NCBI RefSeq assembly: GCF_963921235.1
Contig: NC_086108.1
Location: 31,560,001-31,624,000 of the forward strand
Direction of reading: 5' to 3'
DNA: 64,000 bases
Origin: Mobula hypostoma
Taxonomy: Eukaryota
The notes beneath the pieces were generated by a model. It had not been told where the DNA came from, ran no database searches, and saw only the letters and a program-made list of their open reading frames with translations. A program made the position numbers and the translations under genes. Within the stretch, counting starts at the first letter, position 1, and each line of letters begins with the position of its first letter. Shown here piece by piece: positions 9,411-53,589 of this stretch.

Positions 9411-12400
9411 CTGGTGTAAAAACATTGCAAGTAAAGATTATTAATATACAATTCAAAATTAAACATAATGAATACTTATTACCTAGGAGTAACAAGAAGT
9501 ATTGGTCATTAGTGGTCAGGATAACACATCAAGTAAATGAATGCATTCCACTTTTGTCCAGTGCCAAAATACCCAGGCCAATTGAATATGAAAACCGCTA
9601 TAAATATAATATCATCAATGAATGTAAAGTACAATGGGAACTTTTCTATAATTTTAATGAAAGGAATACGGTTAAAACTGATGAACTGAGGTCTGAGCAA
9701 CAGACACAAAATGCTGGAGGAACTCAGCAGGCCAGGCAGCATCGATGGAAAGGATTACAGTCCTCAGGAAGGGTCTGAGGTCAGAGGTCACAATGACTCT
9801 TGAAGGACATGAGGCTTGGCTAGGCTCAAATAAACTCCCAGTTATGCCCAAGCTCATTGGAAGAGATGATATGAAGGTGGAAACTATTATTGTAATCATA
9901 GGGTCACCTAGTCACCAAATAACCACATAACCATATAACTATATAACAATTACACCACGGAAACAGGCCATCTCAGCCCTTCTAGTCCATGCCGAACTCT
10001 CACCTAGTCCCACCTGCCTGCACTCAGCCCATAACCCTCCATTCCTTTCCTGTCCATATAGCTGTTCAATTTAACTTTAAACGACAACATGGAACCTGCC
10101 TCAACCACTTCTGCTGGAAGTTTGTTCCACACAGCTACCACTCTCTGAGTAAAGAAGTTCCCCCTCATGTTACCCCTAAACTTTTGTCCTTTAATTCTCT
10201 ACTCATGTCCTCTTGTGTGAATCTCCCCCACTCTCAATGGAAAAAGCCTATCTACGTCAACTCTATCTATCCCCCTTATAATTTTAAATACCTCTATCAA
10301 GTCCCCCCTCAACCTTCTATGTTCCAAAGAATAAAGACCCAACTTGTTCAACCTTTCTCTGTAACTTAGGTGATGAAACCCAGGTAACATTCTAGTAAAT
10401 CTCCTCTGTACTGTCTCTATTTTGTTGACATCTTTCCTATAATTCGGTGACCAAAACTGTACACGATACTCCAAATTTGGCCTCACCAATGCCTTGTACA
10501 ATTTCAACATTACATCTCAACTCCTATACTCAATGCTCTGATTTATGAAGGCCAGCATACCAAAAGCTTTCTTCACCACCCTATCCACATGAGATTCCAC
10601 CTTCAGGGAACTATGCACCATTATTCCTAGATCCCTCTGTTCTACTACATTCTTCAATGCCCTACCATTTACCATGTATGTCCTATTTTGATTAGTCCTA
10701 CCAAAATGTAGCACCTCACATTTATCATCATTAAACTCCATCTGCCATCTTTCAGCCCACTCTTCTAACTGGCCTAAATCTCTCTGCAAGCTTTGAAAAT
10801 GTACTTCATTATCCACAACTCCACCTATCTTAGTATCATCTGCATACTTACTAATCCAATTTACCACCCCTTCATCCAGATCATTAATATATATGACAAG
10901 TAACATTGGACCCAGTACAGATCCCTGAGGCACACCACTAGTCACCGGCCTCCAATCTGACAAACAGTTATCCACTGCCACTCTCTGGCATCTCCCATCC
11001 AGCCACTGCTGTATCCATTTTACTTCTTCAATATTAATACCTAATGATTGAACCTTCCTAACCAGCGTTCCATGTGGGACCTTGTCAAAGGCCTTACTGA
11101 AGTCCATATAGACAACATCCACCACTTTACCCTTATCAACTTTCCTAGTAACCTCTTCAAAAAATTCAATAAGATTTGTCAAACATGACCTTCCACGACC
11201 AATATCGAAATATCAATCTACCACATCTCATGATGCTTAAGGTCATGTTGAGCTGCTTGCTGACAAGGCAGAGGTGGGAGGTAGGAGTTGAGAATGTGAC
11301 CTGTTCACTAAAATAACTTGGATCTCAACAAGCATAAAACACAAGCAAAGATGCTGCCTGACCTGCTTCCAACATTTTCTACTTCTATTTGCTTTGTATT
11401 TTAAATTTCACTGTATTACAGACCTGAAAGTAATTTCATGCCAAACTAATTGTTCATTCTCTTTAGTAATAAATGATTTCTGCTAGTATTACACTGAGCA
11501 GGTAAAAACACTGAGCTTGCAATAGGTCCTATACATACACAAGCCTTTCCTTTCTCTTAATCAGCAAGCATATATAAATTCTTATTTCTTTTAATTATCA
11601 AAAGACAATGTGTGCTTTAATCTATTTTTCGATGTACCTTAATGCTAAACAAATTCTTTCAGACTTTAGCTTATTTTTATTGGTTCCATTACCAGATTCA
11701 GTTACCAGGCATTTTGCCAACTTGTCTTACTAAATACGCTAGAGACAGCTAGTGGCAAGATTGTAGTACTGCAGCACATTTTGATATTTTTTATTACGAA
11801 GGCTGATATCAAAGTAGGAAGACATGCAAAAAGCCTAGCTGACCCATGCAATTTCTCCTGATATTTCCCTTCTTCCCTTAATCCCAGTATATATTATCTT
11901 ATATATTTCTCTCCTCAACCTGGCTCCATACCCTACTCTTCTAACTTGTTGCACATAACTATTCTTCCACCCACATTATGTGAAGTCTCAATGAATTAAT
12001 TTTTAAACTATGCCCCCCGGTGAATTGGATCAACATTATCCATTCCTATCATAAATTTGAGTATTTTATTACTTTTTTCCCAATGGTAGCAAATCTAAAA
12101 TCTTCAATCTTTCCTCCCAGGGTTCCTGAGATTAGTTGACTCCTAATATCTAATTCTGGACAAACTTGAAAGCAATACAATCTATTGTATGTTTCCTGGG
12201 TGAACATTGGTTAAATTTTTGGCTGCATGGCTTCATCTTATCAAATCTAAATGAAATTCTAATCAAAACGAATAACATTTAATAAAATTCATGTCAGTAA
12301 AATGGAAGGAATCCAAGATATTAGTTCTGTCTTCATTTTATAGATTTATTTTTGCCCTATCTATTTTGTGTTTTTTTCACTGAACTTCACCCCCCACTGC

Positions 12401-13463
12401 CCACACCCCTTCTCTGCATAGCTTTTGGATCACTGTTCTTGCTGGTCTCTCCATTACTTTCTGTTTCATTTTATGTCTCCCAATCCTCTTCAGTACTACC
12501 ATTCTAATATTGATTCCACGACAGTGCTCCCAAGAATTAATAATTCATCACTGACCTGTTAGATGTGCAGCTGCTTTGAGATTCCTGGGTGGTTCTGTCA
12601 CATTTTTAACTCCTATGGAAGGCACAAAGTTATGATCCCTTAGCAAGAAGAGGCAGACCTGCATCATGTGTCACATACTGAACAAATAAAGTACAACTTT
12701 GGATAGCCCTCTACTTTGTTGCAAAACAATTTGGTTGAATGAATCAACAATTTGAAATAGTGTTGATTTTATCCGAGTCATTTTCTACACTCTTATGTAA
12801 TTCAGATAGAGATCAATGTAAGAGTGATTCTTTTTCCTTTGCAAACTTCCTTTATAGTTAATACCATTTTAGTAATTGCCCCTTTTAACTTTATCTTCTT
12901 CATTTTGACTCTCTACACTCCTCCCCAGGACTCTGAATGATAACAGAATCCTTAGGTCTCTGCTGGGCCCCAAGAAGTACCAGATCATATTTGCAAGACT
13001 AGTAGATCAATGCAAGTGACATTTTGTATAATTATATTTAAACTAGCCCATGCTTACCAATAATTTTCTCTGCACGTGAACCCTTTGCTCTATTATCCTG
13101 ATTAAAAGAAAAGAGAAAAAAAATTAGCCTGCACATTCTCATCCAAGTTGCCTGCTTTAATCCCACATCACTCAGTTCCTCCACCATTCCCACCTCAACC
13201 TTTCATTTAGTTGCTTAGCAATGTACCTCTTTTATCTCTTTGATGTCCTTTTGGAGGTCAATTAAATAGACCGTCCCCAGTGCAACCCATGCCAGAGCTA
13301 GTAGAACCAAGTTCAGAATCAGAATGGAGCCCACTGTCTTGCAGTCACACTTTCTCCTCTTCTTCAATGTGGGCAGAGTCCAAACTGGTGGCTGCACATA
13401 GGGATTGAGATTCGGATTCCCATCCACCATGAACACTTGCGGATATGCATAGCTCTGTTGCAT
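9007..13463 (-). CDS. FASLG: Fas ligand (TNFSF6), 4 coding exons: join(13463-13227,13097-13058,12612-12556,9410-9007); 738 nt, 245 aa type II membrane protein
   Basis: N-terminus MQQSYAYPQVFMVDG, KKRRK then TM helix, AAHLTG strand A, TNF homology domain ending SKTFFGLYKL (the FASLG C-terminus). All introns GT-AG with phases 0,1,1; the spliced frame is open. Confidence 0.92.
9923..11198 (-). mobile_element. 5'-truncated CR1 LINE in FASLG intron 3
   Basis: RT ORFs 10517-11182 and 10199-10510 (DFSKAFDKVPH, YADD, VRPNLEY); tandem 8-mer tail. Confidence 0.93.
12556..12612 (-). CDS. FASLG: FASLG exon 3 (VKNVTEPPRNLKAAAHLT-G), 57 nt
   Basis: TAG acceptor, CAG|GTCAGT donor, encodes AAHLTG motif; phase 1 to 1. 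Confidence 0.9.
13058..13097 (-). CDS. FASLG: FASLG exon 2 (DNRAKGSRAEKII-G), 40 nt
   Basis: Strong polypyrimidine tract plus CAG acceptor; donor TTG|GTAAGC; phase 0 to 1. Confidence 0.88.
13227..13463 (-). CDS. FASLG: FASLG exon 1 (cytoplasmic tail and TM), 237 nt
   Basis: ATG at 13463; ends ...KEIKE with donor GAG|GTACAT, phase 0. Confidence 0.9.
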
Positions 13464-33738: not shown

Positions 33739-36700
33739 ACCATAGAACCATAGAAACTACAGCACAGAAACAGGCCCTTTGGCCCTTCTTGGCTGTGCCG
33801 AACCATTTTCTGCCTAGTCCCACTGACCTGCACACGGACCATATCCCTCCATACACCTCCCATCCATGTATCTGTCCAATTTATTCTTAAATGTTAAAAA
33901 AGAACCCGCATTTACCACCTCGTCTGGCAGCTCATTCCATACTCCCACCGCTCTCTGTGTGAAGAAGCCCCCCCTAATGTTCCCTTTAAACTTTTCCCCC
34001 CTCACCCTTAACCCATGTCCTCTGGTTTTTTTTCCCCCCTTGCCTCAGTGGAAAAAGCCTGCTTGCATTCACTCTATCTATACCCATGATAATTTTATAT
34101 ACTATCAAATCTCTCCTCATTCTTCTACGCTCCAGGGAATGAAGTCCTAACCTATTCAACCTTTCTCTGTAGCTGAGTTTCTCAAGTCCCGGCAACATCC
34201 TTGTAAACCTTCTCTGCGCTTTTTCAACCTTATTTATATCCTTCCTGTAATTTGGTGACCAAAACTGAACACAATACTCCAGATTCGGCCTCACCAATGC
34301 CGACTTATAACAGTCCAGCTCTTATACTCAATACTTCGATTAATAAAGGCCAATGTACCAAAAGCTCTCTTTACGACCCTATCTACCTGTGACGACACTT
34401 TTAGGGAATTTTGTATCTGTATTCCCAGATCCCTCTGTTCCACTGCACTCCTCAGTGCCTTACCATTAACCCTGTATGTTCTACCTTGGTTTGTCCTTCC
34501 AACATGCAATACCTCACACTTGTCAGTATTAAACTCCATCTGCCATTTTTCAGCCCATTTTTCCAGCTGGTCCAAGTCCCTCTGCAGGCTCTGAAAACCT
34601 TCCTCACTGTCTACTACACCTCCAATCTTTGTATCGTCAGCAAACTTGCTGATCCAGTTTACCACATTATCATCCAGATCATTGATATAGATGACAAATA
34701 ACAATGGACCCAGCACTGATCTCTGTGGCACACCACTAGTCACAGGCCTCCACTCAGAGAAGCAATTCTCTACCACCACTCTCTGGCTTTTTCCATCGAG
34801 CCAATGTCTAATCCAATTTACCACCTCTCCATGTATACCTAGCGACTGAATTTTCCTAACTAACATCCCATGCGGGACCTTGTCAAAGGCCTTACTGAAG
34901 TCCATGTAGACAATATCCACTGCCTTCCCTTCATCCACTTTCCTGGTAACCTCCTCGAAAAACTCCAACAGATTGGTCAAACACGACCTACCACGCACAA
35001 AGCCATGTTGACTCTCCCTAATAAGCCCCTGTCTATCCAAATGCTTGTAGATTCTGTCTCTTAGTACTCCCTCCAATAACTTACCTACTACTGACGTTAA
35101 ACTCACCGGCCTATAATTTCCCGGATTACTTTTTGATCCTTTTTTAAACAACGGAACAACATGAGGCACTCTCCAATCCTCCAGCACTTCACCCGTAGAC
35201 AGAGACATTTTAAATATTTCAGCCAGGGCCCCCGCAATTTCAACACTAGTCTCCTTCAAGGTCCGAGGGAGCACTCTGTCAGGTCCCGGGGATTTATCCA
35301 CTTTTATTTTCCTCAAGACAGCAAGGACCTCCTCCTTTTCAATCTGTACAGTTTCTATGGTCTCACTACTTGATTCCCTCAATTCCATAGATTTCATGCC
35401 AACTTCCTTAGTAAATACAGACGCAAAAAACCTATTTAAGATCTCCCCCACTTCCTTTGGTTCCGCACAAAGCCGACCACTCTGATCTTCAAGAGGACCA
35501 ATTTTATCCTTTACAATCCTTTTGCTCTTAATATACTTGTAAAAGCTCTTTGGATTATCCTTCACTTTGACTGCCAAGGCAACCTCATGTCTTCTTTTTG
35601 CCCTCCTGATTTCTTTCTTAAGTATTTTCTTGCACTTCTTATACTCCTCAAGCACCTGATTTACCCCCTGTTTCCTATACATTTCATACAACTCCCTCTT
35701 CTTCTTTATCAGAGTTGCAATATCCCTTGAGAACCAAGGTTCCTTATTCCTATTCAATTTGCCTTTGATCCTGACAGGAACATACAACTCTGCACTCTCA
35801 AAATGTCCCCTTTGAAGGCTTCCCACCTACCAATCAGATCTTTGCCAGAGAACAACCTGTTCCAATCCATGCTTTTTAGATCCTTTCTCATTTCTTCAAA
35901 TTTCGCCTTCTTCCAGTTCAGAACCTCAACCCTAGGACCAGATCTATCCTTGTCCATGATCAAATTGAAACTAATGGTGTTGTGATCACTGGAACCAAGG
36001 TGCTCCCCTACACAGACTTCTGTCACTTGCCCTAATTCATTTCCTAACAGGAGATCCAATGTTGCATCCCCTCTAGTTGGTACCTCTATCGATTGATTTA
36101 GAAAACTTTCCTGAACACATTTTACAAACTCTAAACCAACTAGACCCCTAACAGTATGGGAGTCCCAATCAATGTATGGAAAATTAAAATCCCCTACCAC
36201 CACAACTTTATGTTTCCTGCAGTTGCCTGCTATCTCTCTGCAGATTTTCTCTTCCAAGTCTCGTTAACTATTGGGTGGTCTGTAATACAATCCCACTAAT
36301 GTGGCCATACCTTTCCTGTTTCTCAGCTCCACCCATAAGGACTCAGTAGTCAAGCCCTCTAATCTGTCCTGCCTGAGCACTGCTGTAATATTTTCCCTAT
36401 CAAGCAGTGCTACTCCCCCACCTTTCATTCCTCTGCCTCGATCACATCTGAAACATCGGAACCCTGGAATATTAAGCTGCCAGTCCTGCCCCTCCTGTAG
36501 CCAAGTTTCACTAATTGCTACAACATCATAATTCCACGTGTCAATCCACGCCCTCAACTCATCCGCCTTCCCCGCAATACTCCTAGCATTGAAATATATA
36601 TACCTCAGAAGATTTTTACCACCACTCACAACCTTTCCATCAGCGGATTTGCTTAAACTTTCCATATCATTTATTTTCACCCCAGCCACACTGTCAGCTC

Positions 36701-36950
36701 TGGCACTCTGGTTCCCATCCCCCTGCAAATCTAGTTTAAAGCCTCCCCAATAGCACTAACAAATCTCCCTGAAAGGATATTGGTCCCCCTGTGGTTCAAG
36801 TGTAACCCGTCTCTCTTGTACAGGTCCCACCTGCCCCAGAAGAGGTCCCAATGATCCTGAAATCTGAAACCCTGCCCCCTACACCAGTTCCTCAGCCACT
36901 TGTTCCTCCTCCAGAGCATCCTATTCCTACCCTCACTGGCATCTAGCACA
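33739..36950 (-). mobile_element. CR1 LINE: end of ORF1 esterase domain and frameshifted ORF2 (endonuclease and RT)
   Basis: DGLHLNHRGT; YFNARSI, ETWL, GDFNFP, SDH; DFSKAFDKVPH, FADD; tandem 8-mer tail. Confidence 0.95.
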
Positions 36951-40806: not shown

Positions 40807-41816
40807 GCATGCATTTTGCTTTTTTACAGGAATACTTGCAGGTATTATGAATTTGATACTAAATATAACTTGTGAACTGTGCAATAAAAGCAAAATTAAA
40901 ACAATAGAAGTTACACCTTTAATGTCTTAACTCAACCAAAGAGCAACGATCAAGAACATTTCACAACTTCAGTTTGGCAAACACATTTGATACTCAGACT
41001 GTTTAATAATGCAAAGCACTGATTCAGTGCATGATGCTGATGCAAAAGTGGGGTCTGCTTCTGTTCTGTATGGGAAGCTATGAATGGCTGTAAGGAGAAG
41101 GGATTTTAAAGCAAACTCCATTGCCAAGGCAACAGGTGCTTCTATCTTCACTTGGAGATAATTAAGAGGCCTGACTGCCCTCAGTTAGGGAAGGTTCAAA
41201 TACACAACCTCCATTGCAATGTTAAATACTGGATGGAGTGAGAGAACAATTCTCATGTGGGAAACACTTAAAGGACAAATATTAGAGCTGGGAATATTCA
41301 GGGTTCCTCGAACAAAAGATGGTGAAAGTCTGGGATTCGATTCATTCTTCCCAAATCTGCTGAGGATTAAAATATCAAAACTGAAATTAATGAAAACTTA
41401 TTAGATTTGTGTACTAATGATATGAACACCTGTGGTACTGGCTTTAAATTTGATGACCATTTCTTTAGCTGACTGCTGGTAAAAAAAAAGAAACAACTGA
41501 ACACATTGTCCAGATACAGCCAGGAAGTATGAGGCGCTTAATGGCTACACACGTTTAAATTTTAATTCAGCTTAAAGGCAGAAGTGAATATTGAAAATAA
41601 GAGAAACACACTGAGGTTTATATTTCGATAAATGGATTACAAAAGCATTTCTCCTGTTTTCTAAATAATACATAGCTTGCAATGATTTTTGTAGTTTGCA
41701 AAGGAAATAATGATCTTGTGGTCAAAGCATTGTGAAACTTTTCAACTTCCTTGCTGTCGCAATGACTGCTAGGCCTTCACTACATGTCAAGGTCATATGC
41801 ACCTTGAAATCATGAT

Positions 41817-42214
41817 CTAAATCTTGTAGATTCCAAAGAAGGTCATAAGCTCATCAGCACTGACCATTGTTGGATCCGAGACTTGAACAAACAACTCAAC
41901 TCCTTCTCTCAGGTGAAATATTCCAGCCTGAAATGTGGTCTTCCCCCAAAATCCATGGCCACTGCAGAAGTTCATCTCTTGCACTCTCATCAGAGTCTGG
42001 TCGAGCTGGTAAGTGGCATCGTGTTTAAGAATGGTTTGGTGCAATGGCATCTGAGGGCATTTTATTCCTCGGAAGTAGATTTTTGAATAAATGTAGTATT
42101 TTCCAGTTTTATTGATGATCAGTGTTCCATTCCTGTATGCAAGCCCTTGTATAAAAGCATTGCCCATCTGAATCTCCCACATCAATCTATTGGAATGACC
42201 AGCCGTTGCCTTCC
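41817..42214 (-). CDS. FASLG-like paralog exon 4 (TNF homology domain), 398 nt
   Basis: CAG acceptor at 42217-42215; GKATAGHSNRLMW...TFFGIYKI then stop. Confidence 0.9.
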
Positions 42215-43521
42215 CTGTAATTGCATGTTGATGTTATTCTTGCATTTACATGCAATGAATCAAAAAAATTTGCATCAATATATGCCAGTCAATTTGCTCA
42301 AGTAAGCCAGAAGTATTGTCCATAATTCTAGGATAAGTATATTTTAATATATTAATTTCACTTTTCCTTTGTCATTTGACTAACATTAATAGCACAGAAA
42401 AAAAAACAACAATGTTATGCCAACAACAGGAATTCTGCAGATGCTGGAAATTCAAGCAACACACATCAAAGTTGCTGGTGAACACAGCAGGCCAGGCAGC
42501 ATCTCTAGGAAGAGGTACAGTCGACGTTTCAGGCCGAGACCCTTCATCAGGACTGTTGTGCCAATGTTTTAACCTGCTCCATGATCAATCTGATTCTTCC
42601 CTCCTACACAGCCTATAACCCTCCATTTTTCTTTCATTAATTTGCCTAAGAATCCTTTCAATGTCGCTAATGTATCATCTTCTACTACCGTCCCTGACAG
42701 TGCATTCCAGACACTTACTGCTCACTCTGTATCTAAGATCTATCTCTGACATCTCCTCTAAGTTTTTTTTCCATTCACCTCTGATATTAATCATTCCCAC
42801 CTGATTGTTTCTAATATTCTACTTCACCATTACTCCCCTTTCATTCTATTGTTTTAATTAACATTTAACTATTTTCTTTCACCTTATTCCCTAATTAATA
42901 TATTTCCCCCCACTTTTTCCCCAGCCTTTTCTCCTGGTCTCCAGTTTCCCAGTTCAATTATTTATAGAACGAACAGAATAACAACAAACCTGTAAGATGA
43001 GCGGCCCTTTTAATGTCACCCTCTGCCTCGCTCTTCTTTGCAGTTCCTACAAGACAGCAAACGTAGACCATAACAATCAGCTTCCTGCAAACCCATGAAT
43101 CTTCTTCAATGAATGAAAAAGACAATTACAAATTCGTAATTGAAAAAGAAGTTTGTACTTGCCAGTAAGCTTCTGTGGTGTGTTCTGCGGACTGCTGTTG
43201 ATCTACAAATATTACAAGAACTGAGAGTAAATAGATCTTCAATACACACACTTTAAATAAGCAAGACATGCACAGTTAAATTACCTGGTTCATTTGGGTT
43301 ACTTCTTGGTGCAGGTTGTGCAAGCTGTTTATGGTAAAAGCAAGTCCAGCCAGTGCCAATATGAGCATGACAGCGTTTACTGAAGCGCAGGCTGATATAC
43401 ACTTCATTTTCTTTTGAATTCTAGGTACTGGAAAGGGCAAGGGCCCTGCTGATGTCACCCTACTGGCAGCAAGGTCCTGACCTTCCCGCATTTCCAGAGA
43501 TTGGAGGTTCCTGTGCTCCAT
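41817..43521 (-). CDS. FASLG-like TNF superfamily paralog, 4 coding exons: join(43521-43285,43202-43163,43046-42990,42214-41817); 732 nt, 243 aa
   Basis: TM-bearing exon 1, AAHLTG exon 3, TNF domain with GNAF, YIYSKIYFRG, two Cys, FQAGIF, TFFGIYKI then stop. Exon sizes 237/40/57/398 versus 237/40/57/404 in FASLG. Open spliced frame. Confidence 0.88.
42424..42554 (-). mobile_element. Short Penelope pseudo-LTR fragment in intron 3 of the FASLG-like paralog
   Basis: Matches the terminus of the Penelope element at 18106-18240; flanked by near-direct repeat TGTTATGCCAA/TGTTGTGCCAA. Confidence 0.8.
42517..42556 (-). ncRNA. Minimal type I hammerhead ribozyme motif, Penelope-derived
   Basis: Minus strand ACAGUC-CUGAUGA-AGG(GUCUCGG)CCU-GAAAC-GUC^GACUGU: complete core, 6-bp stem I, 3-bp stem II, palindromic minimal stem III. 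Confidence 0.7.
42990..43046 (-). CDS. FASLG-like paralog exon 3 (TAKKSEAEGDIKRAAHLT-G), 57 nt
   Basis: TAG acceptor, CAG|GTTTGT donor, AAHLTG motif. Confidence 0.88.
43163..43202 (-). CDS. FASLG-like paralog exon 2 (INSSPQNTPQKLT-G), 40 nt, GC donor
   Basis: TAG acceptor; donor CTG|GCAAGT; same size and phase as FASLG exon 2. Confidence 0.75.
43285..43521 (-). CDS. FASLG-like paralog exon 1 (tail and TM), 237 nt
   Basis: ATG at 43521; hydrophobic VNAVMLILALAGLAFTI; donor CAG|GTAATT, phase 0. Confidence 0.85.
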
Positions 43522-44589
43522 GTCTGAAAGCGATCTGGCAAATAGAACAATGTGTAGCCCCCAGAGGCTTCCGTTCGTTCTGCTGGCGGGCAGGTTGCTC
43601 GCCTGTTATAAATTGTTGACCTGCGTTGTTTCCTTTATTTCTTGGTGTAAGTAGATGGGTATTTCAAAGCCAGAGACCGCATGGACCTTGCATGTTTTGA
43701 TGTAGACTTAGTTTCAAGTTAGCAACTCCACCCACCAATACAGGCCTTTGCACAAGGACCAAAGCATTAATCATAATAATATTTGTTATAGCCTTATGTA
43801 GGCAGTGACAAATTACTCAACATTTTTAATCCTTTTACTTGAATCATATAACTACTCCAGATGTAATGTTGTACACATCTGCAGACTGCTACCATCTTTC
43901 CTTTTAATATCCTTTTAAGCTGAAGAGCAATCAGCTTCTTGCTAAGAGAGGAAGTGAACACGTAGAGCTCTGTTTTGAGACCACAAGCAGTGAGGTTATG
44001 CAAGAGCAAATATGCAGTAAGCTTCAGTTAGGAGACTGAATGAAATACATCAAAGCTTAGTGAAGATGCAGAGCTCAAAATGGAGTGACTGCTTCATGCC
44101 CCCAACAAAACCCCCAAAACAAACACTCTGATCCATGTCCTGTAACAGGGAAAGGTTATCTGGTGGACAAATGTAAAGACTGGAAGCTGTGCTCTAAGAC
44201 TTCTTGAAATAAATTGAGGAATCCCTGCCCAGCAGAGAAGCATTCCGGATCATATTGAAGAGAGTGTCGGATCACTGGCCTTCAGCAGTCTGGGAGATGA
44301 TGTAGGAAGTGGCAATGTTGTAGTTGAACAAGACACTCCTGGAGTATTGTGCACAGTTTTATTACTCTGTTATAGGAGAGACATCGATAATGGAAAGAGT
44401 GCCGAGATTTATAAGGATACTGCCCGATGCTTGAGTGAGAGAGAGAGAGATTGGGCTGGCTAGGACTTTACTCCTTGGAAGGTAGGAGATTGAGTGGCTT
44501 CCTTATAGAGGCATATTAAATCACAAGGGGTATAGATAGTGTGAATGCACACAATTAATTATCAGGAATAAGTGATTGCCAAGGTATAT

Positions 44590-47500
44590 GGATCATATGG
44601 GACACAACAGGGTACGGGATGTCTGGAATCGGGTCCTGAATATTCTGAAGGGGGAGGGTGAGCAGCCAGTTGTCTTGGTACCTGTTGGTATCAATGACAC
44701 AGATAAGACAAAGGAGGAGGTCCTGAAGAGAGATTTCCAGGAGTTAGGAAGGAAGCTGAGAAGCAGGACCTCCAGGGTAGTAATCTCGGGATTGCTACCT
44801 GTGCCACGTGCTAGTGAGGGCAAGAATATTAGGATCAGGCAGATGAATGTGTGGCTGAGAGACTGGTGCTGGGGACAGGGCTTCAGATTCTTGGATAATT
44901 GGGATCTCTTCTGGGGGAAGTATGACCTGTTCGAAAAGGACGGGTTACACCTGAACCCGAAGGGGACCAATATCTTGGCAGGAAAGTTTAATAGAGCTGT
45001 CAGGGAGGGTTTAAACTAATTTGGCAGGGGGATGGGAACCGGAATGACAGAGCGGAGGAAGGGGAAAACAGAAATAAATCTAAGATAGTGAGCAGTAAAG
45101 ATGTCAGGAAAGACAGGCAGGCGATGGGGCAAATTTGTAGCCATTGGGATGAGTTGCAGTGCAATAAAGTTGTAGTGAAATCAAAGTGAAAAGTACCAAA
45201 TACTGGTCTTAAGGTGTTATACTTAAATGCACGCAGCATAAGGAATAAGGTGGATGATCTTGTCATACAGCTACAGATTGGCAGGTATGATATTGTGGCC
45301 ATCACTGAGACGTGGCTAAAGGATGCATGTCTCTGGGAGCTGAACATCCAAGGATACACGGTGTATCGGAAGGATAGGAAGGTAGGCAGAGGGGGAGGTG
45401 TGGCTTTATTGGTAAGAAATTACATTAAATCATTAGAAAGAGGTGATATAGGATCGGAAGGTGCAGAATCTTTATGGGTTGAGCTAAGAAATCGCAAGGG
45501 TGAAAGGACCCTGATGGCAGTTATCTATAGGCCTCCAAACAGCTGCAGGGATGTGAACTACAAATTACAACAGGAAATAGAAAAGGCTTGTCAGAAGGGC
45601 AGTGTTATGATAATTGTGGGGGATTTTAACATGCAAGCGGATTGGAAAAATCAGGTCGGCACTGGATCTCAAGAGAGAGAATTTGTAGAATGTCTGCGAG
45701 ATGGCTTTTTAGAACAGCTTGTTGTTGAGCCCACTAGGGGATTGGCTGTACTGGATTGGGTATTGTGTAATGAACCGGAGGTGATTAGAGAGATTGAGGT
45801 GAAGGAACCCTTAGGTGACAGTGATCATAACATGACTGAGTTCACTGTGAAATTTGAAAAAGAGAAGCCAAAATCTGATGTGTCGGTATTTCAGTGGAGT
45901 AATGGAAATTACAGTGGCATGAGAGAGGAACTGGCCAAAGTTGACTGGAAAGGGACACTGGCGGGAAAGACGGCAGAGCAGCAGTAGCTGGAGTTTATGC
46001 GAGAAGTGAGGAAGGTGCAAGACAGGTATATTCCAAAAAAGAAGAAATTTTCAAATGGAAAAAGGATGCAACCGTGGTTGACAAGAGAAGTCAAAGCCAA
46101 AGTTAAAGCAGAGGAGAGGGCATACAAGGAACCAAAAATTAGTGGGAAGACAGAGGATTGGGAAGTTTTTAAAACCTTACAAAAAGAGACTAAGAAGGTC
46201 ATTAAGAGGGAAAAGATTAACTACGAAAGGAAGCTAGCAAATAATATCAAAGAGGATACTACAAGCTTTTTCAAGTATATAAAGGGTAAAAGACACGTGA
46301 GAGTAGATATAGGACCGATAGAAAATGATGCTGGAGAAATTGTAATGGGAGATAAGGAGATGGCAGAGGAACTGAATGAGTATTTTGTATCAGTCTTCAC
46401 TGAGGAAGACATCAGCAGTATACCAGACACTCAAGGATGGCAGGGAAGAGAAGTGTGCACAGTCACAATTACGACAGAGAAAGTACTCAGGAAACTGAAT
46501 AGTCTAAAGGTAGATAAATCTCCCGGACCAGATGGAATGCACCCGTGTGTTCTGAAGGAAGTAGCTGTGGAGATTGCAGAGGCATTAGCGATAATCTTTC
46601 AAAAGTCGATAGATTCTGGCATGGTTCCAGAGGACTTGAAGATTGCAAATGTCACGCCGCTATTTAAGAAGGAGAGAAGGAAGCAAAAAGGAAATTATAG
46701 ACCTGTTAGCTTGACATCGGTTGTTGGGAAGTTGTTGGAGTCGATTATCAAGGATGAGGTTACAGAGTACCTGGAGGCATATGACAAGATAGGCAGAACT
46801 CAGCATGGATTCCTTAAAGGAAAATCCTGCCTGACAAATCTATTACAATTTTTTGAGGAAATTACCAGTAGGCTAGACAAGGGAGATGCAGTGGATGTTG
46901 TATATTTGGATTTTCAGAAGGCCTTTGACAAGGTGCCACACATGAGGCTACTTAACAAGATAAGAGCCCATGGAATTACGGGAAAGTTGCATATGTGGTT
47001 AGAGCATTGGCTGATTGGCAGGAAACAGAGAGTGGGAATAAAGGGATCCTACTCTGGTTGGCTGCCGGTTACCAGTGGTGTTCCACAGGGGTCTGTGTTG
47101 GAGCCGCTTCTTTTTACATTGTACATCAACGATTTGGATTATGGAATAGATGGCTTTGTGGCTAAGTTTGCTGATGATACAAAGGTAGGCGTAGGGGCTG
47201 GTATTGCTAAGGAAACTGAGAGTCTGCAGCGAGACTTGGATAGATTGGAAGAATGGGCAAAGAGGTGGCAAATGAAATACAATGTTGGAAAGTGTATGGT
47301 TATGCACTTTGGCAGAAGAAATAAACAGGCAGACTATTATTTAAATGGGGAAAGAATTCAAAGTTCTGAGATGCAACGGGACTTGGGAGTCCTCGTACAG
47401 GATACCCTTAAGGTTAATCTCCAGGTTGAGTCGGTAGTGAAGAAGGCGAATGCAATGTTGGCATTCATTTCTAAAGGAGTAGAGTATAGGAGCAGGGATG

Positions 47501-48100
47501 TGATGTTGAGGCTCTATAAGGCACTGGTGAGACCTCACTTGGAGTACTGTGGGCAGTTTTAGTCTCCCTATTTAAGAAAGGATGTGCTGACGTTGGAGAG
47601 GGTACAGAGAAGATTCAACAGAATGATTCTGGGAATGAGAGGGTTAACATATGAGGAATGTTTGTCCGCTCTTGGACTGTATTCCTTGGAGTTTAGAAGA
47701 ATGAGGGGAGACCTCATAGAAACGTTTCAAAAGTTGAAAAGCATGGACAGAGTAGATGTGACAAAGTTGTTTCCCATGATGGGGGAGTCTAGTACGAGAG
47801 GGCATGACTTAAGGATTGAAGGGCACCCATTCAGAACAGAGATATGAAGAAATTTTTTTAGCCAGAGGGTGGTGAATCTGTGGAATTTGTTGCCACGGGC
47901 GGCAGTGGAGGCCAAGTCATTGGGTGTATTTAAGGCAGAGATTGATAGGAATCCGAGTAACCAGGGCATCAAAGGTTATGGTGAGAAGGCGGGGGAGTGG
48001 GACTAAATGGGAGAATGGATCAGCTCATGATAAAATGTCGGAGCAGACTCGATGGGCCGAATGGCCGACTTCTGCTCCTTTGTCTTATGGTGTTATGGTC
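44590..48100 (+). mobile_element. Young CR1 LINE: ORF1 esterase C-terminus and ORF2 with three in-frame stops
   Basis: ORFs 45214-45987, 45997-47562 and 47584-47847 share one frame; complete endonuclease and RT motifs; 3' tail. Confidence 0.95.
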
Positions 48101-48719
48101 TAACATTAGACAAGGCAGGGATCTAATTCCAAAATGTAAATCTAACAACTTCTGGTACAGGAAATCCGAAAGAAAAACAGAAAATGCTGGAAACACTCAA
48201 CAGATAAGGCAGCATCATTGGGAAAAGAAAAGGATTTAATATTTCAAGGTAAAGACCCTTTATCAGAAACAGGTAGGCTCTATGAGTCTTGGACCTGAAA
48301 TACTAATTCGATCTTTGTTTTTACAGATTCTGCCTGACATTTCTATATTTTATATGTAAGGGATCTAAACTCAATAGCTTTGAGTTAATAGGAAAAGGAA
48401 TGTGTGATTAACCAATGTCTGTTGTGAGCATGGCAGCAGCATGGCCCATGGTCATCACACTACATTTAGACTGTTAGAGTGAGTTTTTGGGTAGGTGATT
48501 CATTTACACTTAAATGACTCTGTCCACCAGTCTTCTATTTGACTAAGTACTGTGGATTGAGCTCACAACAATGTATTTCCTAAAAGCTGTGAATTTCGGG
48601 ATACTAGCTAGATGCTGCAGATGGAAGTGTGAAGTTTACAAGTAGTTTCGAAGACAGTATTATCTATACTTTATAATATTAATTGTCCTCTATGTTAGCA
48701 CGTAAAATGCCAAATAAAC

Positions 48720-49036
48720 GTATTGTGGATTTAACTTGCATTCCTAAATGGCTGTGGATACCAACCCAGACATGTTGGCGTCGGAAGGAAGGAAAGGAAG
48801 GAAAATCAGAAGGTGTGATGTTTTGTATGTAGCTACAAAAGGAAGCATTGTTTATGCATTGTCTATAACTTTTTAAGTAGCGATTTCCTTTGTGTTTAGC
48901 ATATAAATATCGAGCCCACATTGGGCTAGGAGACCTTTCTACTGAAAGTGTCTCCGTCCGTATGATGCATGCTGTACCTTGTTGTGTTGAATAAAGAAGC
49001 TGCTTTGTATCTACCAGTGACTCTGTCTCTCCGGTG
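48720..49036 (+). mobile_element. Probable small solo LTR
   Basis: TATTGTGG...CCACAACA imperfect inverted termini, internal TATAAA and AATAAA; no clear TSD. Confidence 0.4.
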
Positions 49037-49479
49037 ATTTCATCCACGCCACAACATTAGACAACGGCCAGTATTAAACCACATCGATGAATCAGAATCT
49101 GATTTATTATCGCCGACATTCGTCTTGAAATTTGTTGTTTTGTGGCAGCAGTAGTGACAGAAATAAAATATCACTACAGGTTGCAAAAAATTAAATGAAT
49201 AAACACAAAGTGCGAAGGAGAAATTGCGAGAAGGTGTTGGTTGACTGTTCAGAAATCTGATGGCTAAGGGGAAGAAGCTGTTCTTAAAATTTTGAGAGCA
49301 GGTATTCAGCCTCCTGTACCTCCTCTCTGTTGCTAGTAATGTGAAGAGGGCATGTCCCAGATTATCAGTCTGTAACTTTCAAAGCATTCATTACAATAAT
49401 TATTAAATTAATAATTCCCTTCTTTGGCAGCAAGTTAGAACTGATGAATAAAAATTTACCATTATTTTTTACCCGAGGG

Positions 49480-49559
49480 CAGGGGTTCCCAGCCTGAAGT
49501 CCACAGACCCCTCAGTTAACGGCCAGGGTCCATGGCATAAAAAGGCTTGGGAACCCCTC
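49480..49559. mobile_element. 80-bp hAT-type MITE
   Basis: TIR CAGGGGTTCCCA/TGGGAACCCCTC; degenerate 8-bp TSD; same family as 15713-15792. Confidence 0.75.
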
Positions 49560-49609
49560 CCCTCAGGGCGCTGAATGATTGTTTTCATATTTTCCTACAG
49601 CATAGAAGA

Positions 49610-49890
49610 AGCCCATTTGAAACCATTTTATCTCGCAGAGCAATCACATTCCCCAACTAAACTCCCTGTAACCTATTCTCACCCAACCCCCAGATTCTAC
49701 CAGTCACCTACACACTAAATGACATTTACAGTGGGTCACTCAATTATCTGGAATGTGAGAGGGAATTGCACACCGGGAGAACACCCGAGCAGATACAAAG
49801 CAAGCTTGTAAACTCCACAAAGACAAAATCAAGATCAGCAACCTTGGTCACTAGAGCTGTGAGACAGTGGATTTATTCACTGTAGCACCA
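49610..49890 (-). mobile_element. tRNA-derived V-SINE (HE1-like), degenerate
   Basis: Minus strand TGGTGCTACAGTG..GTCTCACAGCTC..TGTGGAGTTTAC..GTTCTCCC, typical of a V-SINE head and core. Confidence 0.6.
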
Positions 49891-50081
49891 TATCCCATGC
49901 AAATCAGAAATCTAATTCCCTTCTATCTGAGCTTTTCACAAACTTGAAACTTAATCAAAAAGGGAAAGAGTTACATTTTTTAGCTGGCGTGGACAGAATC
50001 AATATTGGCTAACAAATAACTCTCAGAATGGAGGCTGTATTTTAAAAATACCTTACCAACTTAAGCTGCAGTATGACATAC

Positions 50082-50273
50082 CTGCTTGAGGTTGTTAATG
50101 TCCTGTTGTAATTTGAAGATGTAAATTGTACTCCCAGCAAGCCAAGTCAGTGCTATAAAAACCAAAACTGGAATGAACTTGGTGGCAGCCCTTTCTATTT
50201 TTACTTTCTTCTCCGTCTCGTTTTGCGAATTCAGATGCTTAGGTGTTGCTCCATTGTTCAAAGACGTCATCAT
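50082..50273 (-). CDS. Orphan FASLG-type first exon (64 codons: tail, TM, stalk start); alternative first exon or relic of a third paralog
   Basis: MMTSLNNG...KFIPVLVFIALTWLAGSTIYIFKLQQDINNLKQ with donor CAG|GTATGT, phase 0. The last 28 aa align ungapped to FASLG exon 1 with 13 identities by manual count. Confidence 0.7.
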
Positions 50274-50380
50274 GTCAACACTTGCTTTAATTCTTGAATT
50301 ACCTGGTCTCTCATTCAAAATAACTTCAGAATTCAAGCTATGCTCCTTTGAAAAGCTGAACCTTTAAAAGTGGATTCAAT

Positions 50381-50448
50381 GAAACTTCCCTATAAAGCTA
50401 AGAATGAACTGGAAGTGAAAGTGGAGAGTTATGCAAGATTTAAATAGA
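50381..50448 (-). promoter_or_regulatory. Candidate promoter of the orphan exon: Ets-IRF composite element, kB-like site, TATA-like box
   Basis: GGAAGTGAAAGT at 50411-50422 (+); GGGAAGTTTC at 50390-50381 (-); TATTTAAA near 50446-50439 (-). Confidence 0.4.
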
Positions 50449-51774
50449 TAGTAATTCAGTCATGGCTCAGATCATTTGCTAGAAACCCAAACACTACTAA
50501 AAGTATTTGCTGATATAGATCAATGCAGCGAATCCTTGTCAATTTCTGCAAATAGCAGGAGAATTTTTTATGCATATGACATACAATGAGACATGAATGT
50601 CAGGATTGTGAATCGTTGGACTTCAGCACAGTTATAAATGGACCCGTTACAAGTGTAAGCTTACAGATAGTGTGAGCTTTTAAAAACACTTGCATCAGGC
50701 AGTGGGTCTCTAGTAGAATGCCCAAACTGGGCCGTGTCAGAGAGCGAGTAACTAAGGCACCATGTGTCTTTGTCTCAAGACCTAGGCGTAACACCCTTGG
50801 CAAGAGAAATGATCAAAATGGTCAACAGACCCCGAGGAAAGTGGAACACTTTACCTCAATCGTTGGAGACATCCTGTCCATTAACCCGAGGTTATTTTCA
50901 GCATCATTCCAAGTAGGCCAATTGCATCAAATGCCACTTGATTTCTTCAGTTTTTTTATATGCCTCTCAGTACTGCAGTTGTAATGTCAAACAATTGGGA
51001 AGGAGGTACAGGAGCCTTAGATCCCATGCCACCATATTCAGGAACAGTTATTAACCTTCAACCATCAGACTCCTGAACAGCGTGGATAACTTCACTCACC
51101 TCAAATCTGAACTAATTCCACAACCTATGGTCTCACTTTCAAGGACTCATGTTCGCAGTATTATTTACTTCTGTTTTGTTTGCACAATTTGTAACAATGT
51201 GCAGAATATTTTGTGTTTACGACTTACTGCATACATGCTCTCTCTTAAGCTTTTACTGAAGATTGAACTGACCAGGTCAAACAACATCTGTGGAGGCAAG
51301 GGGATGGCCAATGTTCCAGATCCAGACTCTGCACTAGGAATGAGAATTGTAGAGCAAAGATTGCCAGTAGAAAAAGGTGAAAGGGAGGGGTGAGGCAGTG
51401 GGCTGGGAGGTGATGGGTGGAAACATAATAAAAGAAATGTTTGGGGTAAATAGAGGTGAGGAGAGAGGGGGAAGGTAGAAACAGAACCTTGTAGGTGATA
51501 GCTGAGACCAGGTATGACAAGGGAGGGATGACAGCTGGGGGATGGTAATGCCTAGGATTTGGGAGTGTATTGAAAAGAGGAATCAAAGGATAAAGCTTAT
51601 GGCCTGACTAGTGGTAGTGAGAAATGAACACAGGGGGAGTGAGTTACCCTTTCTACACCTACCATGCAGAGTATCTCTTCCTTTGGTTACTCTTTCCATC
51701 CCTCAGAACACCCCCACCTCTGTTACTTGAACTCATCACACTTTCTCATCAGATTTCTTTGGACACTTGCACGT

Positions 51775-51806
<32 letters not shown>
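51775..51806. repeat. (CA)n microsatellite
   Basis: About 15 perfect CA units. Confidence 0.95.
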
Positions 51807-51808
<2 letters not shown>

Positions 51809-53589
51809 GCGCGTTTCTTCTCTCTTTGTTCATCTTTGTTATCTTCACCCCCTCCATTATCTGGTTCAACATCTTACCCACCAGCCCCTGTCTTACCCAT
51901 TCCTCTCACTACTACGCTCTGGCAATCTTTTTACTATACTCTCATCCGGAGGTGGGGCCTCGACCCAAATCATCAACTATCCCTTTGTCTCCGCAGATGC
52001 TGCTTGAATCACCAAGTTCTTCCAGAGTTTATTTTTTGTTGTATATTCCAGCATCTGTGGTCTCTTGTGTCTATGAAGCTCTTACCTTGTTGTGAAGCAC
52101 GCATTACGCTGCTGTCCAATATGATTATACACACAAATACTGAAGAAACAGCCTGTCGATTCTATTATTACATAGGGATTTAACAATGGCTGATGTCAGA
52201 CCTACTGTCAGGCCTGCACAGTCTGGTACCTCCCAGTCTCCACCCAGCTAACGGGAGTTACCTTCTACTCATTTCCAACTCATCACCTGCAGCCTATTTA
52301 AACCCAGCTCCCATCCACAGTCCTTGTTTACCCTCCAAAGCAGCCAGCCTCAACTATTTGCTCCTGGCCTTCAGTTACCTTGTTTCCTTGTTGCCTTAAG
52401 TATCCATTCTCCCTTATTTTGTGGCCCCTCGTGCCTTGTTATTTTGCAGTTTATTAGTAAAGTACCACTCATTGCTGAATTGTCTCCAGTGCTCTGCTCT
52501 TGGGTCAAGTCTCCACATTTCCTGACAAGATAGGTGAACCAACAACTAACCCGGTGGAGTATGCTTGCCTAAAGGAAATCAACCATTGACATGAGCATAC
52601 TATCCAGGAATAGCAAGAAACCATTGACCATCTGCTTCCCACTCACTTCCAACTCTCCATCTTGATACAGCAACCCTATGGCAGTCAACATAGACTCCCT
52701 CTGAGCACCGGATTCTGGTGCCCAAACGCTTCAATGGATCCCCAACCTGATGCCCCAGCTTCCCGTCTCGGTACATTTTACACTTTGAGCGCCAGCCATC
52801 TCTGTATTCTACAGACTGAGCCAAAGTTGCCTTCCTCACCTCTCTCTTGGCTGGGAGAGCTCTGACCTGGGCCATGGCTAACTGGGACAATAAAACCACC
52901 ATTTGCAATGAATATGAGGAATTCACTGCTGTGATGCACCAGGTTTTCGACCATCTGGGAAGTGGAAAGGAAACAGCGGATTGGATACTTCATCTGATCA
53001 AGGCTCACACTCAGAGCTGGAATACGCCGTGAGATTCCAGACCCCCACGGCGGAATGCAGATGGAATGCGGAAGTGCTGCCGGCCCATTATTAACACAGC
53101 CTGCTGGAGGGCTTGTAAAATGAGCTGTCTATCCAAGATGTGCACTGACATCGAAAGCCTCATCACTCTGGCCCTCCAATTGTGAAATATCTTGTGGAAC
53201 AACCCTTCAGGTTATCAGCCAGAATCCGAGATCTGTTCACAAAACGATTTCAGGCTGCAGGGCCATCGTCATCAATGCCCCTGGATCCTATGCAGTTAGG
53301 CGGAGCTCCTTTAACCCTCCAGGAGCGTGAGTGTTGGTGGAGAAAAAACTTGTGCATTTACTGTGAAGCGGCCAATCACCCATGCAACAGATGCCCACTA
53401 CATCCAGGAAATGGCACCACCAGGTAGAGACAAGGGACCTTCTACCTGGTTAGCTCCTCCCACCCTCCTGTTCTGACACCCACTCACTCTCCCCTCCTCA
53501 ACATCCCAATGGCTCTCTACACACAGGAGGCTCTGAGTCCCACTGCTGCACGAAACTTTCTGCACTCGACCCTGTGTGCGTAGGACTCC

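What the first reader, a model, noticed from the sequence alone, without database searches (positions are those of the whole stretch)
50082..50273. Intact orphan Fas-ligand first exon: possible swappable N-terminus/TM module with its own promoter
Seen: an open 64-codon exon with ATG, basic stop-transfer residues, a TM helix and a canonical phase-0 donor. Its last 28 aa match FASLG exon 1 ungapped (13/28 identical by hand), closer than the paralog's own exon 1 does (7/28). I found no AAHLTG exon or TNF-domain exon between it and the paralog at 43521; that interval is mostly transposons. Its donor is phase-compatible with exon 2 of the paralog (43202, 6.9-kb intron) and with exon 2 of FASLG (13097). 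Inference: one TNF domain may be delivered with alternative cytoplasmic tails from separate promoters, which would be unusual for FASLG. The alternative is a truncated third paralog.
Basis: partly seen in the sequence, partly recalled or inferred. Interest (0 to 1): 0.8.

Follow-up and report, generated by a model that had tools for sequence, protein, structure and literature searches.

The report
Alternative first exon of ray FasL-like gene
The "orphan" exon is a real, transcribed alternative first exon of the neighbouring Fas-ligand-like gene, already present in public gene models of five ray and sawfish species, so it is an ordinary two-promoter gene rather than a free-floating module.

Summary
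A 64-codon open exon lies on the minus strand at 50273..50082, with an ATG, a basic cluster, a TM helix and a CAG|gtatgt donor. It is not an orphan. It is identical (64/64) to the N-terminus of a RefSeq model, "TNFSF6-like isoform X2" of Mobula hypostoma. Isoform X2 models with the same exon exist in four more batoids. Isoform X1 of the same gene starts at the proximal exon (43521..43285).

Assembled transcript contigs from four runs (two studies, two organism codes) join 50082 to the paralog's exons 2-4. In two of the runs the contig graph branches exactly at the exon 1/exon 2 border, with both first exons present.

No remnant of a third TNF domain exists in the window.

Between Mobula and Pristis, the TM and stalk part of exon 1a is 27/32 identical, against 89/131 for the TNF-domain exon, so it is under constraint. 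Shark and skate models show only the proximal type.

The exon's origin is unresolved: partial duplication, or the head of a lost tandem copy. Interest is modest, because this is an already annotated alternative-first-exon isoform.

The parts
50082..50273 (-). Exon 1a coding part: 64 codons giving a 32-aa cytoplasmic tail, a TM helix and the start of the stalk. The phase-0 donor is CAG|gtatgt.
   Evidence: sequence and ORF; 64/64 identical to P0003 (XP_062920955.1, isoform X2); contigs end or splice exactly at 50082.
50274..50380 (-). Minimal 5' UTR of exon 1a. The transcript contigs reach 50335, 50346, 50356 and 50380.
   Evidence: table 8 (records 19, 16, 24, 8). Depth is zero in all four runs in the bin 50582-50938.
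50270..50314 (-). Upstream ORF of 14 codons in the 5' UTR. Its TGA stop overlaps the main ATG.
   Evidence: script; sequence. Function not tested.
50439..50446 (-). TATA-like TATTTAAA, about 60 nt upstream of the longest contig end. A candidate core promoter element.
   Evidence: sequence only. No 5'-end mapping data.
43203..50081 (-). Intron 1a (6,879 nt), removed in isoform X2. It contains exon 1b and a plus-strand LINE (44576-47844).
   Evidence: records 19 and 24 skip it. Pfam hits for GDSL esterase, Exo_endo_phos and RVT_1.
43285..43521 (-). Exon 1b coding part (79 codons), the proximal first exon used by isoform X1. It is the type found in the shark and skate models.
   Evidence: tblastn of P0005, 93.75%; alignments; records 3 and 10 cover 43285..43590 and 43285..43418, each running 27 nt past the donor.
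43163..43202 (-). Exon 2 (40 nt), shared by both isoforms. Its acceptor is ttgtag| and its donor is the unusual GC type (G|gcaagt).
   Evidence: searches (sequence; tblastn), and the length bookkeeping.
42990..43046 (-). Exon 3 (57 nt), which encodes the AAHLTG motif.
   Evidence: HMM hit, E = 5e-5.
41817..42214 (-). Exon 4 coding part with stop codon, the TNF homology domain. The 3' UTR continues below 41300.
   Evidence: PF00229, E = 2e-28; records 1, 9 and 24.

Best explanation
The exon is the distal alternative first exon (1a) of a tandem FasL paralog, which RefSeq calls TNFSF6-like. The gene's shared exons 2-4 lie at 43202..41817.

Two start regions about 6.8 kb apart give two mRNAs:
- 1a-2-3-4, isoform X2, 228 aa.
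- 1b-2-3-4, isoform X1, 243 aa.

Both are type II membrane proteins with the same stalk and TNF domain. They differ in cytoplasmic tail and TM helix.

Shown: the exon is transcribed, it is spliced to exon 2 of the paralog, the two first exons are mutually exclusive, and the exon is conserved across two batoid orders.

Inferred:
- It has its own promoter, because the contig 5' ends cluster at 50335-50380, no depth is seen upstream, and a TATA-like box lies nearby.
- The two heads give different regulation, trafficking or reverse signalling. Exon 1b keeps a small proline-rich patch and a conserved tail. Exon 1a has a short, poorly conserved tail but a very conserved TM and stalk.
For: Protein models:
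- Searching with the 64-aa peptide found 2 clusters among 19 candidates, both named TNFSF6-like isoform X2. Their 4 members come from Mobula birostris, M. hypostoma, Hypanus sabinus and Hemitrygon akajei.
- The M. hypostoma protein matches the window 64/64 in exon 1a.
- Searching with full-length X2 gave 9 proteins among 137 candidates: 3 X2 clusters (including Pristis pectinata), 3 X1 clusters and 3 single shark forms.

Transcript contigs (4 of 4 runs laid, 2 studies, organism codes A and B):
- X3 record 19 and X4 record 24 each lie on 50082.. and on ..42213 with exactly 98 record letters between. That equals 40 + 57 + 1 nt, which is exon 2, exon 3 and the first base of exon 4.
- In X1 and X2, separate contigs for 1a and for 1b each run 27 nt past their donor. 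The shared contig runs 101 nt past 42213, which is 98 plus the CAG common to both exon ends. The overlap is therefore 30 letters. I read this as a branch of a 31-letter-word assembly graph at the exon 1/exon 2 border; I saw lengths only, not letters, and the word length is my inference from those lengths.
- Unique non-exon bins have zero depth: 50582-50938 in all 4 runs, and 43799-44155 in X1-X3.
- Contig depths for 1a against 1b are 38.5 and 54.3 in X1, and 13.9 and 11.4 in X2. In X3 only 1a was assembled. In X4 they are 50.7 and 3.8. The tool warns that contig depth is a poor measure, so this is only a rough hint.

Constraint, Mobula against Pristis:
- Exon 1a is 43/64 identical: tail 16/32, TM and stalk 27/32.
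- Exon 4 is 89/131 and exon 1b is 46/79.
Against: - The runs are labelled "RNA?", which is a guess. That they are transcripts rests on the intron-free contigs and the silent unique bins.
- The short exons 2 and 3 were not shown as aligned pieces. Their presence is inferred from exact lengths.
- The RefSeq models may have been built from the same runs, so the two lines of evidence need not be independent.
- No 5'-end data exist, so a further upstream non-coding exon is not excluded.
- No protein-level or functional data exist for either isoform.
- The Amblyraja skate and three shark models show only the 1b type. The exon may be absent there, or merely unannotated.
Confidence: 0.93

Rival explanations
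1. The exon is a dead remnant, the leftover first exon of a decayed third FasL paralog. On this view its transcription and splicing are noise and it contributes no functional protein.
For: - The window has three exon 1s but only two sets of exons 2-4.
- Tandem FasL copies, including a likely pseudogene, are reported in a chondrichthyan: four in tandem in Callorhinchus (PMC7674686, passages read).
- The N-terminal 20 residues of exon 1a have no counterpart in other family members.
Against: - The reading frame is open in all five batoid species with models, across two orders.
- The TM and stalk part is 27/32 identical between Mobula and Pristis, higher than the TNF-domain exon at 89/131.
- Exon 1a contigs are present in all 4 runs laid, and in two runs 1a is the only or the main assembled form.
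Confidence: 0.04
2. Exon 1a is a cluster-wide swappable module that is also spliced to FASLG exon 2 (13097). It would then give FASLG proper an alternative tail.
For: The phases fit. Exon 1a ends in phase 0, and FASLG exon 2 is a 40-nt exon entered in phase 0, with the same 40/57-nt layout as the paralog.
Against: - Both searches with the exon peptide returned only proteins carrying the paralog's ectodomain: 2 of 19 candidates and 3 of 1255.
- Both contigs that continue past the donor for more than 27 nt run into the paralog's exon 4.
- Such a splice would have to skip a complete gene and 37 kb.
Confidence: 0.02
3. Question of origin only. Exon 1a arose by partial tandem duplication of the paralog's own exon 1, from about the EKK motif onward. 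It then recruited a new start codon and promoter. On this view it is not the head of a lost whole gene.
For: - Homology to other family exon 1s starts at E21-K22-K23 and runs to the donor. The first 20 residues align to nothing.
- In uncorrected BLASTP, the best hits outside the 1a group are the shark orthologues of the same gene, at 39-45% over 44-46 aa. The composition-adjusted E value is 8e-5.
- The 1a exon is found only in batoid models, while 1b is found in the sharks and the skate.
Against: - Exon 1a is equally similar to FASLG exon 1 (E = 5e-6), and it has no detectable similarity to the window's own exon 1b.
- There is no nucleotide similarity between the two exon regions.
- The 46-column tree leaves the deep placement open: of 16 inner branches only 3 are starred and 8 are open. 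Exon 1a does not nest within the B-gene exon 1s.
Confidence: 0.45

Closest known systems
RefSeq models [quoted passage not shown] (XP_062920955.1 Mobula hypostoma, XP_072130849.1 M. birostris, XP_059839620.1 Hypanus sabinus, XP_072918525.1 Hemitrygon akajei, and the Pristis pectinata X2 model P0006)
   Same: The same exon joined to the same exons 2-4. The M. hypostoma model is identical to the window in exon 1a.
   Different: Nothing differs in the sequence. These are automatic predictions with no published description that I could find.
FASLG / TNFSF6 exon 1 (window 13463..13227; shark orthologue P0014)
   Same: The type II signal-anchor layout, the basic cluster before the TM helix, the phase-0 donor into a 40-nt exon 2, and 13/28 identity over the TM and stalk end.
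   Different: - Exon 1a lacks the N-terminal YPQV(F/Y)xVDG motif and the longer tail of FASLG (reading).
- It is spliced to the paralog, not to FASLG.
TL1A/TNFSF15 cDNA forms VEGI-174, -192 and -251, and RANKL1/2/3
   Same: These are TNF ligands reported as several transcript forms that share the receptor-binding C-terminal part but differ at the N-terminal or intracellular end (PMC2954241 passages; PMC12627340 passage).
   Different: - The physiological relevance of the VEGI short forms is doubted in that paper. The RANKL forms arise by exon deletion or skipping according to the review.
- Here both forms keep a full TM anchor, both are conserved across orders, and both are seen in transcript contigs.

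Membership tests
FasL/TNFSF6-family first exon (type II signal anchor of a TNF ligand) | Encodes a cytoplasmic tail, a basic cluster and one TM helix | tested here: met
   the EKKVKIERAATK flank, and a best 19-aa hydrophobic window at residues 34-52 with a mean of 1.99.
FasL/TNFSF6-family first exon (type II signal anchor of a TNF ligand) | Sequence similarity to family exon 1s beyond chance | tested here: met
   E = 5e-6 against FASLG exon 1. E = 8e-5 against a shark paralog; 0 of 20000 shuffles reach 13/28. No alignment to the window's own exon 1b.
FasL/TNFSF6-family first exon (type II signal anchor of a TNF ligand) | Joined in the mRNA to a TNF homology domain (PF00229) | tested here: met
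   records 19 and 24. PF00229, E = 2e-28, in P0003.
FASLG proper (orthologue of mammalian FasL) | N-terminal YPQ-type motif and a proline-rich tail, belonging to the FASLG gene | tested here: not met
   The exon 1a tail, MMTSLNNGATPKHLNSQNET, has neither feature. It splices to the paralog. The role of the proline-rich region is taken from the PMC2763855 abstract (listing).
Alternative first exon with its own promoter | Mutually exclusive with the other first exon, and both joined to the same exon 2 | tested here: met
   98 letters lie between exon 1a and exon 4, which leaves no room for exon 1b. The separate 1a and 1b contigs each run 27 nt into the shared sequence.
Alternative first exon with its own promoter | An independent transcription start site | tested here: inconclusive
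   Contig ends lie at 50335-50380, depth is zero at 50582-50938, and TATTTAAA lies at 50446-50439. No 5'-end mapping was possible.
Pseudogene remnant | A broken frame, or no transcription, or neutral decay in relatives | tested here: not met
   The frame is open in 5 species, the exon is transcribed, and the TM and stalk part is 27/32 identical between Mobula and Pristis.

The most novel reading that the evidence does not exclude
Exon 1a is the surviving head of a lost tandem FasL copy that the downstream paralog captured. This would give batoids one death-ligand ectodomain with two interchangeable tail/TM modules under separate promoters, and the two modules would differ in sorting or reverse signalling.

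Exchange of N-terminal exons may also be general in the elasmobranch FasL cluster. A third gene has TNF domains that are 53% identical between Mobula (P0017) and Scyliorhinus (P0019), yet their N-terminal exons do not align.
Probability: 0.2. Interest if true: 0.5.

Novelty: new member of a known kind. Interest (0 to 1): 0.3.

Why it matters
- It corrects the reading of the locus. The window holds two FasL-family genes, and one of them has two first exons. It does not hold two genes plus an orphan.
- The two heads show complementary conservation. Exon 1a has a variable tail and a nearly fixed TM and stalk. Exon 1b has a conserved tail and a variable TM. This suggests the N-terminal module of a death ligand has been sub-functionalised in rays.
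- That idea could be tested by expressing the two isoforms and comparing their localisation and shedding.
- The exon and its splicing are already in public automatic annotation, and N-terminal isoforms of TNF ligands have precedents, so the surprise for a specialist is small.

Tried and rejected
- The look-up of sequencing runs listed no holder on record as RNA. All 18 rows were "RNA?" or "?". I laid X1-X4 anyway.
- The joints 50082-to-43202 and the others are not among the 15 rows shown in table 5 (297 more rows were not shown). The junction evidence comes from table 8.
- The profile search with three exon 1a peptides found nothing beyond the three known clusters among 1255 candidates. The tool itself calls this weak evidence, so the absence of exon 1a from skates and sharks is not shown.
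- The representative search found 452 hits at E <= 0.001, of which 150 were listed. I read 12 of them and 4 further cluster members. The X2 forms are hidden behind the X1 representative there.
- A possible link between exon 1a and the first exon of Scyliorhinus P0019 appeared in the tree (support 82/66, long branch) and in uncorrected BLASTP. It fell away with composition adjustment (E = 0.91).
- blastn found no nucleotide similarity between the exon 1a region and exon 1b or FASLG exon 1.
- The tree used 20 rows that I chose (chondrichthyan sequences plus coelacanth and newt) and only 46 columns. Its deep branches are unsupported.
- The search of earlier findings returned nothing.
- dN/dS could not be computed, because no nucleotide sequences of other species were available.

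Full report
**What is there.** On the minus strand, 50273..50082 is an open 64-codon exon. It reads MMTSLNNGATPKHLNSQNETEKKVKIERAATKFIPVLVFIALTWLAGSTIYIFKLQQDINNLKQ and is followed by gtatgt. Its strongest hydrophobic window is residues 34-52, preceded by a basic cluster. The last 28 residues match FASLG exon 1 (13463..13227) at 13/28, while the paralog's proximal exon 1 matches FASLG at 7/28. No shuffle out of 20000 reaches 13/28.

**It is not an orphan.** A search with the 64-aa peptide among longer proteins gave 2 hits among 19 candidates, both named "TNFSF6-like isoform X2". Their clusters hold four RefSeq proteins, from Mobula birostris, M. hypostoma, Hypanus sabinus and Hemitrygon akajei. 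The M. hypostoma protein (P0003) equals the window 64/64 in this exon. tblastn places its other parts at 43202.., 43053..42988 and 42221..41820.

A search with full-length X2 returned 9 proteins among 137 candidates:
- X2 forms, including Pristis pectinata.
- X1 forms of the same genes, starting with the proximal exon (43521..43285).
- Single forms from three sharks.

The Amblyraja skate model and the shark models have the 1b-type N-terminus.

**Gene model.** This is read.

| Part | Coordinates (minus strand) | Notes |
|---|---|---|
| Exon 1a | 50273..50082 | distal first exon |
| Exon 1b | 43521..43285 | proximal first exon |
| Exon 2 | 43202..43163 | 40 nt, donor G\|gcaagt (a GC-AG intron) |
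| Exon 3 | 43046..42990 | 57 nt |
| Exon 4 | 42214..41817 | TNF domain (PF00229, E = 2e-28) |

**Transcript evidence.** One search for runs listed 18 holders, none on record as RNA. I laid four of them on 41300-52000. X1-X3 belong to one study and organism code A. X4 belongs to another study and organism code B.

- X3 record 19 lies on 42046..42213 and on 50082..50335 with 98 record letters between.
- X4 record 24 lies on 41300..42213 and on 50082..50356, also with 98 letters between.
- 98 equals exon 2 (40) plus exon 3 (57) plus the first base of exon 4. These contigs are therefore the spliced form 1a-2-3-4, without exon 1b.
- In X1 and X2 the exon 1a contigs (records 8 and 16) and the exon 1b contigs (records 3 and 10) each run 27 letters past their donor. 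The shared contig (records 1 and 9) runs 101 letters past 42213, which is 98 plus the CAG that both first exons end in.
- The overlap of 30 letters fits a branch of a 31-letter-word assembly graph exactly at the exon 1/exon 2 border. I did not see the letters, only the lengths, and the word length is my inference from those lengths.
- Unique non-exon bins are silent: 50582-50938 in all four runs, and 43799-44155 in X1-X3. This argues that the runs are RNA, although they are labelled as a guess.
- Contig depths for 1a against 1b are 38.5 and 54.3 in X1, and 13.9 and 11.4 in X2. In X3 only 1a was assembled. In X4 they are 50.7 and 3.8. The tool warns that contig depth is a poor measure, so I take from this only that 1a is not a rare by-product.
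- The 5' ends of the 1a contigs lie at 50335-50380. A TATTTAAA sits at 50446-50439, and a 14-codon upstream ORF ends on the main ATG.

**No third gene body.** An HMM of exons 2-4 run on all six frames of the window hits only the paralog's exons 4, 3 and 2 and FASLG's exons 4 and 3 below E = 1. An exon 1 HMM finds only the three known exon 1s, which were also its training rows. Intron 1a (6,879 nt) holds a plus-strand LINE, and depth is repeat-like from 44513 to 49867. Only about 1.5 kb of unique DNA separates the two first exons.

**Constraint.** Identities between Mobula and Pristis are given in the table.

| Region | Identity |
|---|---|
| Exon 1a, whole | 43/64 |
| Exon 1a, tail | 16/32 |
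| Exon 1a, TM and stalk | 27/32 |
| Exon 1b, whole | 46/79 |
| Exon 1b, tail | 28/47 |
| Exon 1b, TM and stalk | 18/32 |
| Exons 2-3 | 21/33 |
| Exon 4 | 89/131 |

The 1a anchor is better kept than the receptor-binding domain, while the 1b tail is better kept than the 1b anchor. An open frame in five species of two orders, together with this pattern, argues for purifying selection. dN/dS could not be computed here.

**Origin.**
- Homology of exon 1a to other family exon 1s begins at E21-K22-K23. The first 20 residues align to nothing.
- Composition-adjusted BLASTP gives E = 8e-5 against a shark orthologue of the same gene, E = 5e-6 against FASLG exon 1, and no alignment to the window's own exon 1b.
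- There is no nucleotide similarity between the exon regions.
- A tree of 20 chosen rows on 46 columns leaves the deep branches open: 3 of 16 inner branches are starred.
- The choice between a partial duplication of the paralog's exon 1 and the head of a lost tandem copy therefore stays open.
- Tandem FasL copies, one a likely pseudogene, are reported for Callorhinchus (PMC7674686, passages read).

**Comparison with the known.**
- TNF ligands with several N-terminal forms are described for TL1A (PMC2954241, passages) and RANKL (PMC12627340, one passage).
- Exon 1b and the shark forms keep a small proline-rich patch before R-I-E-K-K, and exon 1a has none (reading). That the two heads differ in sorting or signalling is my inference, not a result.
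- I found no paper describing alternative first exons in a FasL-family gene. In one search, 7 papers hold both search terms, none of them in the title or abstract. Searches gave nothing on this gene in cartilaginous fish.

**Verdict.** It is not an orphan, it does not belong to FASLG, and it is already annotated.

Noticed in passing
window 43157-43163 (minus strand): Intron 2 of the TNFSF6-like paralog has a GC donor (G|gcaagt). The matching FASLG intron has a normal GT donor (G|gtaagc, at 13057).
   Followed up: partly
not in the window; proteins P0017/P0161 (Mobula) and P0019 (Scyliorhinus): Mobula has a third TNFSF6-like gene that this window does not encode (best tblastn hits 47% and 40%). 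Its TNF domain is 53% identical to a Scyliorhinus protein, but the two N-terminal exons do not align. First exons may therefore also differ or alternate in that gene.
   Followed up: partly
window 50270-50314 (minus strand): A 14-codon upstream ORF in the exon 1a 5' UTR has a stop codon that overlaps the main start codon. It could damp translation of isoform X2.
   Followed up: no
window 43603-43938: In run X4 (organism B) a low-depth contig (4.79) lies just upstream of exon 1b. It could be a longer 1b 5' UTR or unspliced intron 1a.
   Followed up: no
window 44576-47844 (plus strand), and many other places: A near-intact LINE with a GDSL-esterase ORF1, an endonuclease and an RT lies in intron 1a. 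Similar RT-bearing ORFs fill much of the window (for example 969-2384, 10202-11212 and 34294-36755), and contig depths there run to tens of thousands, so related elements are highly represented in the runs.
   Followed up: partly
window 42371-42727: A short repeat in intron 3 of the paralog has extreme contig depth in all four runs (about 110,000 to 370,000). It is probably a very abundant SINE-like or transcribed repeat.
   Followed up: no
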